64,000 bases of DNA from Candidatus Woesebacteria bacterium (lineage in GTDB: Bacteria > Patescibacteriota > Microgenomatia > UBA1400 > UBA12028): NCBI GenBank assembly GCA_040006915.1, contig JBDTWD010000002.1, forward strand, positions 158,475 to 222,474. The letters run 5' to 3'. The notes below the pieces were generated by a model. The model was not told where the DNA came from and did no database searches. It saw only the letters and a program-made list of their open reading frames with translations. How positions within the stretch are numbered: position 1 is the first letter of the stretch; each line of letters begins with the position of its first letter. A program made the position numbers and the translations under genes. Shown one piece after another: positions 58,538 through 62,067 of this stretch.

Positions 58538-58577
58538 CAGTCTATCTGACGATTTTGGAGATTAAAAGAGGAAGAAT
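58538..58577 (-). promoter_or_regulatory. Copy 1 of an identical 40-nt element in the 5' leader of radA. The second copy at 62028-62067 precedes the 1138-aa gene.
   Basis: cagtctatctgacgattttggagattaaaagaggaagaat on the plus strand occurs identically at both sites. Each copy sits 5-25 nt upstream of the ATG of a minus-strand gene. Confidence 0.6.
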
Positions 58578-58586
58578 ATATTCCTA

Positions 58587-61500
58587 TCACGATACGACGT
58601 AGCACTGTTGAAATGAATACGAATATGGATAATAAGAAAAAGCAGCCACTTCTTCCAGATCAACTACAGGATAATTCTTCGAAGTAATAATTTGTTGGAT
58701 TTGGGATCGATTTGAATGAATAACCGCATCGGTTGGAATAAGCACTCCTTTTAAATCCAGCTGAGATCTTATTTGCTCAGCGTATCCCATTAAGTTCTCA
58801 AAGAGAGCTTGATTGTCTACACTCGATAGAAAATCTAAAGAAGGGTTTATTCCAGGCAAACAAACATATCCTTCGCGTATGAGAATATGCATTCCACCGG
58901 CTGCGATATGATCAGAGTCATCAAAAAAGATGACATTGTAAAAAGACGGATCATTCCATAGTTGTTCATCTGGTGTTACACAAACCCCCATATTATATCC
59001 AGCTACCCCATGCTCTCTCCTCTTTGAGATTGCATATCGAATTATTCGTGTTGCTGCCATTCCTTCTTCTTCGTCAAAAGAAAATTTATCGATTTCTTTG
59101 CGCATCTGCACATTCAAAGGTCCAATAATTCCAGATGAAATCAGTCGAATGGTAAAGTTGTCATCTTGGCTTATGTCATCTGGTAATACTAAGAGATCTC
59201 TGACTTGAGCTTTTGTTTTATTTTCTAAATCCGCATATGAAATCCCAAACTCTCCCAAAAGAGTATCTAGTTGTTCAATCTGCTTTTGCTTCTGGCCTTC
59301 ATCACCTTCAGCTCGAACTCCCTGAAGTCTTGTGAGTATTTGTCCAATCGACATGTTTATATATCCACTGAGAACTTTCTTTTGGAGATCAGCAAATTTT
59401 TCTGGGAATTCACTTTTCCAAGCCGCCAAACAATCTCGAATGAGGTCATTCTTTACATGTTCCCCAAGAAATTCTTTATATTTCATCAGTTCTGGTATAG
59501 AAAGTCCGTATTTGCTTTCCAAAGGACTCCCTCCTTTAATAAGATGAAATCGATACATTGAGTCAAACAAAAAAGCTCTCCCTCCCGGACTATTCGAGCT
59601 TTTGTACTGATACAGCTGAAGCAACTTCTCTGCGGTATCAATCTCATCAACACCCAGGACGTTTCCCGACTCACTCATTTCAACATTCACAGAATCAACA
59701 GCTTTTCCAATTTCAGTCCATAGTTGTAAATTAAGCTCTTCTCCTGCAGAGAGAACAAATTTCCCAACAGGGATAGACGCTTCTTGGTTTTGAAGAGTTG
59801 ATAAAGCGCCAGGAATATCATTTTGTCGATCAGGCCGATCTTTATTCAGTTGATCATATTGCCCTTGAGTCAAGCCCACAGCGGGGGGGAAAACGGCATA
59901 CGCAATCGCTGGGTAGAGTGTGTCTTTAAAATCCTCATCATCCATTTCTCCTTGAGTTATTTTTTGTTGAAGGGAACTAACTCTTCTTTTCACTGTGTCA
60001 ATCCCAACAGTATCCCCACCGGAATAAAATGCTTTGTACTGTTCATACACATCAAAATGTATGACACCTATTTCTGTAATAAAATGTTCGATAATCTCTC
60101 TCTCTTCCGAGATATCATCCACACAAGAAAGCAGGTTTTCTACAATATTGCGCGCTAAGGTTCCATAGCGTTTTGCGACGTATGTAAGATATTCTTTATC
60201 TTCAGGAAGGAGTACTCTTTCATGGGCAAGAGTCCCTATAGCTTCAAAATATAAAAAGGCCGCCTCTCCTTGAGCTTTACGTATGGGAAGGATATGGTCT
60301 GAATATGAGAAAGTATCCATCCCTTGCAGAGCTATAATCATTTGCTCTCCAATCTGTGGCATTTCCAAGATCTCAACTATATTTTCTATTGTCATTCCTT
60401 TCGGATAATCTTGCAGAATTCCTTCTAACTCAAAAACAGGGATTTCAAAATCTTTGATCACCTGAAGAGCTAGTGGAAGATCAGTAATACCTTTCCCCCA
60501 TCTCACTACTTGTTTAAGTATCAGCTCTTCAGTTAGCTCGCTCAAGTTGACAACCATATCCGTTTCTGGGGCATCTAACAGAGAATGGAGGGCCTTGACT
60601 CTTTCATCATCTGGTTCAAGGGGCTTCCCTCTTTCTCCTATATAGGTTTTGAAAAAAAGAGAACTGATACTATCTTTTAATTTTTCAAGCGATTTTCTTC
60701 GAATATCTTCGTTCGGATGAAAAGTCGCAATCTGAACTAGTGCTTGGGCTGATTCAAGAAAATGAGGACTGACAACACTGCTTGTTTCATCAGTAAGAGA
60801 AAGATGTCGCAATAAACGCGTGGCTTTAGCTCCATCAGTTTCTGCAAAAATATATTCAACTATTTCGGGAAGCTTTAATGGTTCTGCAGAGCTATATTGA
60901 AGAACTCTTTGAAGAGTAGATGGAGCCAGCAACAAATATATTTTTTTTCGATCTATTCCATCTCCATAGAGATCTAAGTTCTTAAAAATTCTCTTCTCTC
61001 TCTCTGAAATTAGTCCCAAACTCGAATTTAAAAGACAATCCCATAAGTACTTATTTATGATCGGCGAAGTCGAGGAAATATTTTCAAGCAATGCAAAAAC
61101 ATACTCTTGAGACCTCTTCTTCTCAATCACTCTCTCATCTTTGATCATCTTCTCGATAAATAATATTTGGTCTGATGTCATGAAAGACTTAACTATCTCC
61201 TTTACTTTTTCTGCATTGTACTGTAACGCAAGCAAAGCCTCGATCAAAATAGGAGAGAGAGCTATCATATCTTTCTGGGCGGAAGAAGAGATGAAATCGA
61301 GTATTTTGCTGGTTAGAATTCCATCTGCAATTACTTCTTTTAAAGTCTCTCCTTGTAATAAAGAAAGAACCTCTGGAATACGATAAGAGTCATCTCTTTG
61401 TGCCAAATCGAAAAAATGTCTAAAAAAATCTCTGGTGCTAGATGGAGCTTGATAAGAACTATTTCTTTCTCTCCCTAGATATTGGGACACCCATTTTAAT

Positions 61501-62003
61501 AGTGAAGTTAAATCTTCTTTTCTTGACAGCCTATCCTTAGCGATTGAAAACAACACATCCGACAAAACCTTAGGTAAAAAACCTTCTTTATCAAAGATAA
61601 GATCAAGCGAATCGTAATTCCAACCTGCTAAGCGAATTTTGAGATATCCTTCCATTGTGGATGATGGCACGTCTTTGAATCTAAAAATAGATCTCTTAGC
61701 TAAACCTAATGTCATTAACTCGTCATCTGAAAGATCAGTAAAGAAAGTTAATAATAACTCTTCATTTTTCACTCCCAATTCCCAGAGGGTATCATTAAAA
61801 GATTTCTCTTGCAGCGAGTAAGTACACTCTGCAATTATTTCACGCATTTTCTCTCGCAGAATCTCAAGAGATTGACCAGTAGGTAACAATGAAATCTTCT
61901 CAAAAAGAGAAGCCTCTCTTTCTCTCCTTGCTGGCTCCGTTAGTATGGAATTTTTTTCTGGTGGTTGGACATTCGTGATTTTTCTTGGTCGTTCATCGCT
62001 CAT
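58587..62003 (-). CDS. Large hypothetical cytoplasmic protein (1138 aa), no recognisable domain.
   Basis: Long ORF with an AGGAGA SD. Helical, Leu/Glu/Lys-rich. No TM, signal or NTPase motifs. Confidence 0.5.
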   Translation of the reverse strand: MSDERPRKITNVQPPEKNSILTEPARREREASLFEKISLLPTGQSLEILREKMREIIAECTYSLQEKSFNDTLWELGVKNEELLLTFFTDLSDDELMTLGLAKRSIFRFKDVPSSTMEGYLKIRLAGWNYDSLDLIFDKEGFLPKVLSDVLFSIAKDRLSRKEDLTSLLKWVSQYLGRERNSSYQAPSSTRDFFRHFFDLAQRDDSYRIPEVLSLLQGETLKEVIADGILTSKILDFISSSAQKDMIALSPILIEALLALQYNAEKVKEIVKSFMTSDQILFIEKMIKDERVIEKKRSQEYVFALLENISSTSPIINKYLWDCLLNSSLGLISEREKRIFKNLDLYGDGIDRKKIYLLLAPSTLQRVLQYSSAEPLKLPEIVEYIFAETDGAKATRLLRHLSLTDETSSVVSPHFLESAQALVQIATFHPNEDIRRKSLEKLKDSISSLFFKTYIGERGKPLEPDDERVKALHSLLDAPETDMVVNLSELTEELILKQVVRWGKGITDLPLALQVIKDFEIPVFELEGILQDYPKGMTIENIVEILEMPQIGEQMIIALQGMDTFSYSDHILPIRKAQGEAAFLYFEAIGTLAHERVLLPEDKEYLTYVAKRYGTLARNIVENLLSCVDDISEEREIIEHFITEIGVIHFDVYEQYKAFYSGGDTVGIDTVKRRVSSLQQKITQGEMDDEDFKDTLYPAIAYAVFPPAVGLTQGQYDQLNKDRPDRQNDIPGALSTLQNQEASIPVGKFVLSAGEELNLQLWTEIGKAVDSVNVEMSESGNVLGVDEIDTAEKLLQLYQYKSSNSPGGRAFLFDSMYRFHLIKGGSPLESKYGLSIPELMKYKEFLGEHVKNDLIRDCLAAWKSEFPEKFADLQKKVLSGYINMSIGQILTRLQGVRAEGDEGQKQKQIEQLDTLLGEFGISYADLENKTKAQVRDLLVLPDDISQDDNFTIRLISSGIIGPLNVQMRKEIDKFSFDEEEGMAATRIIRYAISKRREHGVAGYNMGVCVTPDEQLWNDPSFYNVIFFDDSDHIAAGGMHILIREGYVCLPGINPSLDFLSSVDNQALFENLMGYAEQIRSQLDLKGVLIPTDAVIHSNRSQIQQIITSKNYPVVDLEEVAAFSYYPYSYSFQQCYVVS

Positions 62004-62027
62004 ACCTATTCTCCTGATGTGTATCCA

Positions 62028-62067
62028 CAGTCTATCTGACGATTTTGGAGATTAAAAGAGGAAGAAT
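62028..62067 (-). promoter_or_regulatory. Copy 2 of the 40-nt leader element, upstream of the 1138-aa orphan gene.
   Basis: Identical 40-mer to 58538-58577, followed by tggatacacatcAGGAGAataggtATG. Confidence 0.6.

What the first reader, a model, noticed from the sequence alone, without database searches (positions are those of the whole stretch)
58538..62067. Identical 40-nt leader element upstream of both radA and the adjacent 1138-aa orphan gene
cagtctatctgacgattttggagattaaaagaggaagaat occurs twice, each time immediately 5' of the start codon of a minus-strand gene: radA (57144-58532) and the 1138-aa hypothetical (58587-62003). Perfect identity over 40 nt in non-coding DNA implies recent duplication or strong constraint. 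It could be a shared operator (for example a DNA-damage regulon box), a 5'-UTR structural element, or a small repeat family. Co-regulation with radA would give the orphan giant a DNA-damage context.
Basis: seen in the sequence. Interest (0 to 1): 0.6.

Follow-up and report, generated by a model that had tools for sequence, protein, structure and literature searches.

The report
Promoter duplicated by single-gene insertion
The identical 40-base stretch in front of radA and its big neighbour is not a shared regulatory box: it is radA's own promoter region, copied when a foreign 3.45-kb gene was inserted there, and relatives of that gene in other ultra-small microbes show similar long insertion footprints.

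Summary
The 40-mer occurs exactly twice (58538-58577, 62028-62067), with none expected by chance. What matters is the geometry: the two copies are direct repeats that bracket the 1138-aa gene. A relative with 80% identical RadA (L004) has one 40-mer homologue (35/40) directly before radA. Deleting 58538-62027 in silico makes the window colinear with it. So the 40-mer is native radA upstream DNA, and the second copy is the footprint of a 3,450-bp single-gene insertion.

The 40-mer probably holds the promoter of a leaderless radA mRNA (a TAnnnT box 6 nt before the ATG), so the insertion gave both genes the same promoter. There is no sign of an operator family or a structured RNA.

The "orphan" has 281 distant relatives in CPR bacteria, Omnitrophota and DPANN archaea. 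It models as a helical solenoid with a C-terminal GNAT-like domain and is not a recombinase. Three relatives are also bracketed by target duplications (52, 33 and 20 nt), as is an unrelated DUF3800 gene (86 nt). The insertion mechanism is unknown, and the recurrence deserves a systematic survey.

The parts
58538..58577 (-). 40-nt direct repeat, copy B. It is native upstream DNA that still serves radA and ends 5 nt before the radA ATG.
   Evidence: Exact match. Homologous to the single copy in L004 (35/40) and to the 45-nt ABC-radA spacer of L005.
62028..62067 (-). 40-nt direct repeat, copy A. It now lies upstream of the inserted gene and is continuous with the native left flank (cttaca...).
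   Evidence: The left flank plus copy A aligns to L004 1119-1185.
58578..62027 (-). Inserted segment, 3,450 bp: a 24-nt leader carrying its own Shine-Dalgarno sequence, the ORF, and a 9-nt tail. The boundaries could be shifted anywhere within the repeat.
   Evidence: Removing 58538-62027 makes the window colinear with L004 in one blastn HSP. GC is 0.38 and GC3 0.31, against 0.43 +/- 0.03 and 0.38 +/- 0.04 for 27 other genes, ranking 3rd lowest of 28. No terminal inverted repeats.
58587..62003 (-). 1138-aa protein with a HEAT/ARM-like alpha-solenoid (about residues 190-970) and a C-terminal GNAT-fold domain (about 974-1136). It belongs to an uncharacterised family of CPR, Omnitrophota and DPANN organisms.
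62011..62014 (-). GGAG Shine-Dalgarno sequence of the inserted gene, 7 nt before its ATG. It lies inside the insert, not in the repeat.
   Evidence: Sequence. Only 5 of 28 window genes have an SD-like motif.
58539..58544 (-). TAGACT, a -10-like box placed 6 nt before the radA ATG (inferred leaderless promoter). The twin box in copy A is at 62029-62034.
   Evidence: TAnnnT starts exactly at -12 in 5 of 28 window genes, against 0.39 expected (P = 4e-5, Bonferroni 1.3e-3). The same box and spacing precede radA in L003, L004, L005 and L073. Four of the 5 window/L004 differences fall in the 17-nt spacer.
57144..58532 (-). radA (DNA repair protein RadA/Sms), 462 aa.
   Evidence: Pfam. 100% identical to an NCBI protein named RadA from a Candidatus Woesebacteria MAG.
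62125..62349 (+). Candidate 74-aa ORF divergent from radA and the insert. Its promoter-like site TTGTAA-16-TATACT (62067-62094, + strand) abuts copy A.
   Evidence: L004 has an 87-aa ORF in the same position and orientation with the same promoter hexamers. The protein similarity is not significant.
62446..63978 (-). ABC transporter (its N-terminus runs beyond the window), the conserved upstream neighbour of the variable slot.
   Evidence: Pfam ABC_membrane + ABC_tran. The same gene is upstream in L003, L005, L071 and L073, and an ABC-like gene end precedes the slot in L002.

Best explanation
The 40-mer is the native DNA immediately upstream of radA. It most likely contains the core promoter of a leaderless radA transcript (TTTTAA-17 nt-TAGACT-6 nt-ATG). 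A foreign 3,450-bp segment carrying one gene, with its own Shine-Dalgarno sequence, was inserted between this region and the radA start codon in the lineage of this Woesebacteria MAG. The event duplicated 40 bp of target DNA, so one copy now precedes the new gene and the other still precedes radA.

The perfect identity reflects a recent event, not constraint on a shared motif. The functional consequence is inferred: both genes are driven by identical promoters. radA would start at or next to its ATG, and the new gene would carry a leader of about 18 nt with an SD.

The inserted gene encodes cargo, an alpha-solenoid protein with a C-terminal GNAT-like (acyl-CoA N-acyltransferase fold) domain. 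It is not a mobility enzyme.

How the 40-bp duplication arose is not shown. The two simplest routes are (i) fill-in of a break with a 40-nt stagger after capture of a linear fragment, and (ii) Campbell-type (ends-in) integration of a small circle that already carried the 40-mer.
For: Shown:
- The exact 40-nt direct repeats bracket the ORF.
- Empty site: L004 (RadA 80% identical) has left flank + one 40-mer homologue (35/40) + 5 nt + radA. Its positions 1146-1185 align to both window copies, and the window minus 58538-62027 aligns to L004 as a single HSP.
- L005 (RadA 75%) has the ABC stop codon, then 45 nt homologous to the 40-mer, then radA.
- None of the closest relatives has the big gene.
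- The insert has lower GC and GC3 than its neighbours and one of the few SD motifs in the window.
- No other full or partial copies in the window or in the public genome and metagenome collections.
- The protein is not a recombinase: the fold is solenoid + GNAT.
- The same architecture recurs elsewhere. L014 (= L048, two independent assemblies, one MEGAHIT k141) has an exact 52-nt repeat around a family gene, spanning a whole divergent promoter region. In L028 the last 33 nt of the upstream gene are duplicated around a family gene, 30/33 identical. L064 has a 20-nt exact repeat. In L039 an 86-nt repeat (90%) surrounds an unrelated DUF3800 gene.

Inferred:
- The promoter and leaderless reading rests on the TAnnnT enrichment at -12 and on its conservation in radA orthologues.
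Against: - The promoter match is weak (7 of 12 to TTGACA/TATAAT) and the consensus scan did not call it. There are no transcript data.
- The compositional difference of the insert is modest (about 1.6-1.7 SD).
- No donor sequence was found, and the closest relative is only 40-47% identical.
- A 40-bp target duplication is far longer than classical transposition gives, and the insert has no terminal repeats or mobility gene, so the mechanism stays open.
- From the sequence alone, integration cannot be fully separated from a mis-join with a 3.49-kb circle that shares the 40-mer, if the source assembly used k <= 40.
Confidence: 0.76

Rival explanations
1. The 40-mer is a shared cis-regulatory operator (for example a DNA-damage box) or a member of a small dispersed repeat family, kept identical by selection. 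It would place the big gene in the radA regulon.
For: The two identical copies lie upstream of two co-oriented genes. A small GTC-N5-GAC symmetry overlapping the -10 box is kept in L004.
Against: Neither the 40-mer nor its 14- or 17-nt halves recurs in 64 kb, even with 2-3 mismatches. The searches of the genome and metagenome collections found nothing. There is no substantial palindrome. The empty-site comparison explains the second copy without invoking selection. The orthologous radA leaders of L002, L003 and L072 lack the motif altogether.
Confidence: 0.06
2. The repeats are attL/attR of a site-specific integrative element or cassette (tyrosine or serine recombinase, integron attC, or Xer/dif module) that uses the radA upstream region as its attachment site.
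For: Identical direct repeats of tens of bp flanking acquired DNA are typical of att-site recombination. L018 is compatible with a circular single-gene form. Repeat-bracketed relatives exist.
Against: There is no recombinase in the insert, whose single ORF is solenoid + GNAT. None was found among the 27 window proteins scanned with Pfam. The repeat has no inverted-repeat core. The repeated sequences in the four family cases are unrelated to one another and are simply whatever lay at the target: a promoter, a gene's 3' end or gene starts, with lengths of 20-52 nt. That argues against a defined att site.
Confidence: 0.1
3. Assembly artefact: a free 3,490-bp circular or tandem element that shares a 40-mer with the chromosome was threaded into the contig through the shared k-mer.
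For: The k=31 Logan contig breaks exactly at the repeat, so short-k graphs cannot resolve the structure. L018 looks like a circle or tandem array of just such a gene.
Against: The element would still have to carry 40 nt identical to this organism's radA promoter, which itself implies a past integration or excision. The analogous 52-nt structure in L014/L048 was assembled twice, once with k=141, which exceeds the repeat length. Older, decayed footprints (L028 30/33, L039 90%) cannot be graph artefacts.
Confidence: 0.06
4. The 40-mer is a structured 5'-UTR RNA element shared by both mRNAs.
For: Its position is 5' of both start codons.
Against: Folding is no better than shuffles (z = 0.14 for the 40-mer, -0.16 and -1.34 for the leaders). 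There is no Rfam match in the window apart from two tRNAs. The -10 box 6 nt from the ATG implies that most of the 40-mer is not transcribed into the radA mRNA.
Confidence: 0.02

Closest known systems
Target-site duplications of insertion sequences, especially the IS1634 family members IS1634 and IS1549, which make long, variable-length direct repeats (8-514 bp; PMC2266710)
   Same: Native target DNA is duplicated on both sides of the inserted DNA. The lengths are long and variable between events (20, 33, 40 and 52 nt in the family, 86 nt for a DUF3800 gene), and no target consensus is apparent.
   Different: Those elements encode a DDE transposase and have terminal inverted repeats. This insert has neither: its only ORF has a solenoid + GNAT fold, and the termini of the four family inserts share no motif.
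Campbell-type (ends-in) integration of a circular DNA through a short region of identity, as with integrative plasmids or att-site elements
   Same: The product geometry is identical: homology - insert - homology as direct repeats. A possible circular or tandem single-gene form exists for a family member (L018).
   Different: It requires the incoming circle to already carry 40 nt of this host's radA promoter. No integrase or att-like core was found. RecA-type recombination on 20-52 bp would be inefficient (established knowledge, not tested here).
Recombinase-less gene modules moved by host enzymes (integron cassettes with attC; Xer-dependent dif/pdif modules)
   Same: A single cargo ORF with almost no non-coding DNA, bounded by repeats, with no mobility gene of its own.
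   Different: attC and dif sites are defined, partly palindromic recombination sites carried by the module. Here the repeats are ordinary local target sequence and differ at every locus. No intI was seen in the window.
GNAT (GCN5-related N-acetyltransferase) superfamily, for the protein's C-terminal domain
   Different: Sequence identity is 2-13%. No Pfam, NCBIfam or PDB sequence match, even with a family profile. The conserved motifs (NMGVCVAPD, GGMH, LPGINPS, IHSNR) are not the canonical GNAT motif A, and the domain is fused to a helical solenoid of roughly 800 residues (after a poorly modelled N-terminus).

Membership tests
Insertion sequence / transposon with target-site duplication | Direct duplication of native target DNA flanking the insert | tested here: met
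   The single-copy site in L004 aligns to both window copies, and the virtual deletion restores colinearity.
Insertion sequence / transposon with target-site duplication | Element encodes a transposase | tested here: not met
Insertion sequence / transposon with target-site duplication | Terminal inverted repeats, or conserved termini shared between copies | tested here: not met
   No inverted repeat joins the insert ends. The termini of the window, L014, L028 and L064 inserts share no motif.
Insertion sequence / transposon with target-site duplication | Multiple near-identical copies within a genome | not testable with these tools
   Only 64 kb of the source genome is available and it holds no second copy. 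The source genome did not turn up in the collection scans.
Site-specific integrative element (attL/attR) | Integrase (tyrosine or serine recombinase) in or next to the element | tested here: not met
   None in the insert, and none among the 27 window proteins scanned with Pfam.
Site-specific integrative element (attL/attR) | A defined att core shared by independent integrations | tested here: not met
   The repeats at the four family loci are unrelated sequences of 20, 33, 40 and 52 nt.
Integron gene cassette | attC site with paired inverted core sites (R''/L''...L'/R') at the cassette end | tested here: not met
   The 40-mer forms no hairpin longer than a 3-bp stem on the gene strand and only a weak interrupted one on the other strand, no better than shuffles. 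No GTTRRRY core is visible in the sequence.
SOS / DNA-damage operator regulon | Palindromic operator recurring upstream of several repair genes | tested here: not met
   There is no palindrome and no further copy in the window. The rest of the genome could not be tested.
Leaderless sigma-70-type promoter | -10 box about 6-7 nt upstream of the start codon, with no Shine-Dalgarno sequence | tested here: met
   TAGACT-6 nt-ATG with no SD. TAnnnT at -12 is enriched in window genes (5 of 28 against 0.39 expected) and is conserved before radA in L003, L004, L005 and L073.
Leaderless sigma-70-type promoter | Mapped transcription start at the start codon | not testable with these tools
   No transcript data are available. 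The -35 match is weak (3 of 6), and the consensus scan did not list the site.
GNAT acyl-CoA N-acyltransferase superfamily (protein C-terminus) | GNAT alpha/beta fold | tested here: met
GNAT acyl-CoA N-acyltransferase superfamily (protein C-terminus) | Sequence-level membership, including the acetyl-CoA-binding motif A (Q/R-x-x-G-x-G/A) | tested here: inconclusive
   No Pfam GNAT model matches the protein or six relatives. The family has invariant G1036-G1037 and a conserved LPGINPS loop between the predicted beta4 and alpha3, but no canonical motif A was identified.

The most novel reading that the evidence does not exclude
Ultra-small prokaryotes (CPR/Patescibacteria, DPANN archaea, Omnitrophota) may share a way of acquiring single cargo genes without any recombinase in the inserted DNA. 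It would leave long, variable target duplications (20-86 nt), possibly via small circular single-gene intermediates. The solenoid-GNAT family would be a frequent passenger that crosses the bacteria/archaea boundary. When the target is the promoter of a leaderless gene, as here and in L014, the duplication keeps a promoter in front of the resident gene without silencing it (and, here, appears to supply the newcomer's only promoter).
Probability: 0.2. Interest if true: 0.75.

Novelty: new variant of a known kind. Interest (0 to 1): 0.5.

Why it matters
For annotation, it matters because identical "leader motifs" in front of adjacent genes can be insertion scars and not regulons. Here the scar dates a very recent gene gain in a streamlined CPR genome. 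It also shows how a newcomer can be expressed at once, by borrowing a copy of the resident promoter, without disabling an essential repair gene.

More broadly, how CPR and DPANN organisms acquire genes is poorly understood. I did not survey their mobile elements beyond the 27 window proteins scanned, none of which is a recombinase or transposase. In about 730 kb examined, the long gene-bracketing duplications found were four around members of one uncharacterised protein family, in both bacteria and archaea, and one around a DUF3800 gene. That makes a concrete, testable lead to an unrecognised insertion mechanism. It also flags a large solenoid-GNAT family, likely a protein-modifying effector, as unusually mobile.

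Tried and rejected
- **Regulon box or repeat family:** rejected. There are no other copies in the window, even of half-sites. Searches of genome contigs (27-mer core) and metagenome contigs (conserved blocks with a free spacer) found nothing.
- **Structured RNA leader:** rejected.
- **The big ORF as a self-mobilising transposase or integrase:** a phmmer hint to the HIV integrase core (E = 0.67-0.9) vanished with the family profile. The predicted fold contradicts it.
- **The 722-aa gene in the same slot of L003 as a homologue of the big ORF:** no. It belongs to a different secreted family shared by L003, L071, L073 and L004.
- **Word-indexed homologue searches** for the big ORF, alone and as a 51-sequence alignment, returned nothing, although exhaustive HMMER found 281 relatives. 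As a result, contigs encoding the HMMER hits could not be looked up.
- **Mobile-element carriage:** no family member in IMG/VR viral contigs, GenBank phages or PLSDB plasmids.
- **L041 32-nt repeat:** explained as paralogous N-terminal signal regions of two adjacent genes, not an insertion scar.
- **L065 28-nt repeat:** two similar terminator hairpins.
- **Unavailable data:** the afdb50 fold library was not available. DNA of the 85%-RadA JGI genome was not retrievable.
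Full report
**1. The observation**

The 40-mer is present exactly twice, at 58538-58577 and 62028-62067. There are no near-matches at up to 3 mismatches, and none of 100 shuffles gave a match. On the coding (minus) strand it reads ATTCTTCCTCTTTTAATCTCCAAAATCGTCAGATAGACTG. Copy B is followed by cgatt-ATG of radA. Copy A is followed by tggatacacatcaGGAGaataggt-ATG of the 1138-aa ORF. Similarity stops abruptly at both ends of the 40 nt.

RadA is confirmed by Pfam and is 100% identical to a protein that NCBI names RadA from a Candidatus Woesebacteria MAG.

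**2. What the second copy is**

The genes downstream of radA (large proteins without Pfam hits, a sortase and, in most loci, rho) are largely conserved in relatives. The slot between the upstream ABC transporter and radA is variable:

| Locus (RadA identity) | Content of the slot |
|---|---|
| L005 (75%) | nothing, 45-nt spacer |
| L004 (80%) | a small divergent ORF |
| L002 (84%) | a DUF559 gene |
| L003, L071, L073 | homologous 610-744-aa secreted proteins |
| JGI genome (85%) | other genes |

None of these has the big ORF.

L004 is decisive. It carries ...cttaca-ATTCCTCCTCTTTTAATCTACAAATTCGTCCGCTAGACTG-cctct-ATG(radA). That is the left flank of window copy A, one 40-mer homologue (35/40), and then the radA start as found after window copy B. 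In blastn, L004 positions 1146-1185 align to both window copies. Deleting 58538-62027 in silico turns two HSPs into one colinear HSP that runs from the left flank through radA. This is the signature of an insertion with duplication of 40 bp of target.

The insert is 3,450 bp: a 24-nt leader, the ORF and a 9-nt tail. Its GC and GC3 are somewhat lower than those of its neighbours (0.38/0.31 against 0.43/0.38, third lowest of 28). It brings one of the few Shine-Dalgarno motifs in the window.

**3. What the 40-mer does natively**

The 40-mer shows no RNA structure (z about 0) and has no Rfam match. Neither the 40-mer nor its halves occurs anywhere else in the window, and searches of the public genome and metagenome collections found nothing. 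The only other hit among the 73 fetched loci is L004.

Most window genes lack an SD. A TAnnnT hexamer starting exactly at -12 is found in 5 of 28 genes, against 0.39 expected (P = 4e-5, 1.3e-3 after correction). radA has TAGACT there. The same box at the same 6-nt distance precedes radA in L004 (TAGACT), L005 (TAGGAT), L003 and L073 (both TACTAT), even though the surrounding sequence has diverged. Four of the five window/L004 differences fall in the 17-nt spacer between TTTTAA and TAGACT.

I therefore infer, without transcript data, that the 40-mer contains the promoter of a leaderless radA mRNA. A divergent promoter-like site (TTGTAA-16-TATACT) for a small + strand ORF abuts it and is also conserved in L004. 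The insertion thus duplicated a promoter. radA keeps its own, and the newcomer is placed behind an identical one, using its own SD for translation. Co-regulation is therefore plausible, but it is a by-product of where the gene landed and does not point to a role in repair.

**4. The inserted gene**

The ORF has no Pfam, NCBIfam or PDB sequence match. The word-indexed searches found nothing. Exhaustive HMMER found 281 relatives, 111 of them below 1e-30, which share mainly residues about 530-1137. Some of these relatives are embedded in proteins of 3,000-6,400 aa.

Loci recovered from genomes and metagenomes come from CPR lineages, Omnitrophota, Woesearchaeota and other DPANN-type archaea, and a few probably mis-binned MAGs. 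None comes from viral contigs, phages or plasmids.

**5. Recurrence**

I scanned every fetched locus for repeats that bracket the family gene. The footprints found are listed below.

| Locus | Organism or source | Repeat | What was duplicated |
|---|---|---|---|
| L014 (= L048) | archaeal MAG; L014 is MEGAHIT k141, L048 an independent JGI assembly | 52 nt, exact, 2,823 nt apart | the whole divergent intergenic region, plus the first 12 nt of a methyltransferase gene and the ATGGA of a glycosyltransferase gene |
| L028 | Peregrinibacteria | 33 nt, 30/33 | the last 33 nt of the upstream CHASE2-cyclase gene, repeated just after the family gene |
| L064 | metagenome contig | 20 nt, exact | brackets the family gene plus a ParE-type toxin-antitoxin pair |
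| L039 | metagenome contig | 86 nt, 90% | the 3' end of an AbrB-like gene, around an unrelated DUF3800 gene |

In L014 the TATA-like boxes sit about 26 nt from each start codon (read by eye), which suggests leaderless archaeal promoters.

In 471 kb, the only exact direct repeats of 25 nt or more with spacing above 600 nt were the window pair, the L014 pair and the ends of L018. In a scan of 284 genes of 200 aa or more, bracketing scores of 24 or higher occurred at 3 of 32 family genes. The L064 repeat lies outside the 350-nt flank used and brings the family total to 4. Among about 250 other genes there was one real case.

The duplicated sequences and the insert termini are unrelated between cases. 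That argues for a target-duplicating process that is not sequence-specific, and against an att site or transposon ends.

L018 (3,337 nt) is compatible with a ~3.1-3.2-kb circle or a tandem array containing only a family gene and a 165-nt spacer with a good promoter. L045 has two copies fused in tandem.

**6. Mechanism**

Shown: an insertion occurred, it duplicated 40 bp of target, the insert carries a single cargo gene with no recombinase, and there are no defined ends.

Inferred: the duplication arose either by fill-in at a break with a long stagger or by ends-in integration of a circle carrying the same 40 nt. I cannot choose between these two routes. The nearest precedent for long, variable duplications is the pair IS1634 and IS1549 (IS1634 family; 8-514 bp, mechanism unknown; PMC2266710), but those are transposase-encoding elements with inverted repeats.

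**7. Verdict**

The finding is real. Its regulatory interpretation is largely wrong. It is an insertion scar that happens to be a duplicated promoter.

On its own this would be a modest result. The recurrence of equally long scars around the same uncharacterised gene family in both bacteria and archaea raises the interest. The lack of any mobility gene in the window insert adds to it. I rate it a new variant of a known kind (insertion with target duplication). I give about a 20% chance that it reflects a distinct, still undescribed gene-acquisition route in ultra-small prokaryotes.

Noticed in passing
L014 4928-4979 and 7751-7802 (same structure in L048): An exact 52-nt direct repeat brackets a homologue of the big ORF in an archaeal MAG. 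The repeat contains a whole divergent intergenic region, 12 nt of a methyltransferase gene start and the ATGGA of a glycosyltransferase gene. The family ORF ends inside the second copy.
   Followed up: yes
L039 2164-2249 and 3155-3240: An 86-nt direct repeat (90% identical), which is the 3' end of an AbrB-like small gene, brackets an unrelated DUF3800 gene. It looks like an older scar of the same kind of insertion, in the CPR-type contig that also holds the closest DNA-level relative of the big ORF.
   Followed up: partly
L018 1-3337: A SPAdes contig whose two ends overlap (163 nt, within 108-nt tandem coding repeats). It is compatible with a ~3.1-3.2-kb circle or a tandem array holding only one family gene and a 165-nt spacer with TTGACT-17-TATACT.
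   Followed up: partly
L045 5074-10680: Two diverged copies of the family gene, 2,880 nt apart, fused into one 1,868-aa ORF.
   Followed up: no
L028 4527-4559 / 7879-7911 and L064 4620-4639 / 8391-8410: A decayed 33-nt duplicate (30/33) and an exact 20-nt duplicate of neighbouring gene ends bracket family genes. In L064 the bracketed interval also contains a ParE-type toxin-antitoxin pair.
   Followed up: partly
window 62067-62349 (+): A candidate 74-aa ORF (62125-62349) transcribed divergently from radA and the insert, with a promoter-like TTGTAA-16-TATACT that starts at the last base of 40-mer copy A. L004 has an ORF in the same position with the same hexamers, but the protein sequence is barely conserved.
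   Followed up: partly
window, about 28 gene starts (e.g. 33875-35986, 36449, 43130, 44288, radA): Genome-wide hint of leaderless transcription. TAnnnT begins exactly 12 nt before the start codon in 5 of 28 genes (0.39 expected), and only 5 of 28 genes have an SD-like motif.
   Followed up: partly
window 56968-56995 (-): A near-consensus promoter (TTGACA-16-TATACT with an upstream TG, 11 of 12) in the 313-nt gap between the radA stop codon and the next gene (619 aa, no Pfam).
   Followed up: no
window 15-29839 (+): A run of very large ORFs (3624, 2455, 1554 and 1556 aa, the first apparently truncated by the window edge), with a TPR protein (22965-25049) among them. The large ORFs were not analysed.
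   Followed up: no
L002 60-575: In the 84%-RadA relative the slot holds a DUF559 (endonuclease-like) gene. It is flanked by GC-rich hairpins (cctcccctcatggaggggagg ... cccctcctctggaaggagggg), the second of which supplies an SD to radA. This is a different kind of insertion at the same site.
   Followed up: no
window 40385-40446: A 35-nt exact tandem repeat with a 27-nt period, at the 5' end of a response-regulator gene (40375-40845).
   Followed up: no
method: The word-indexed protein search returned nothing for the 1138-aa protein or for a 51-sequence family alignment, while exhaustive HMMER found 281 relatives. 'Orphan' calls based on the indexed search alone would be wrong for this family.
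   Followed up: yes
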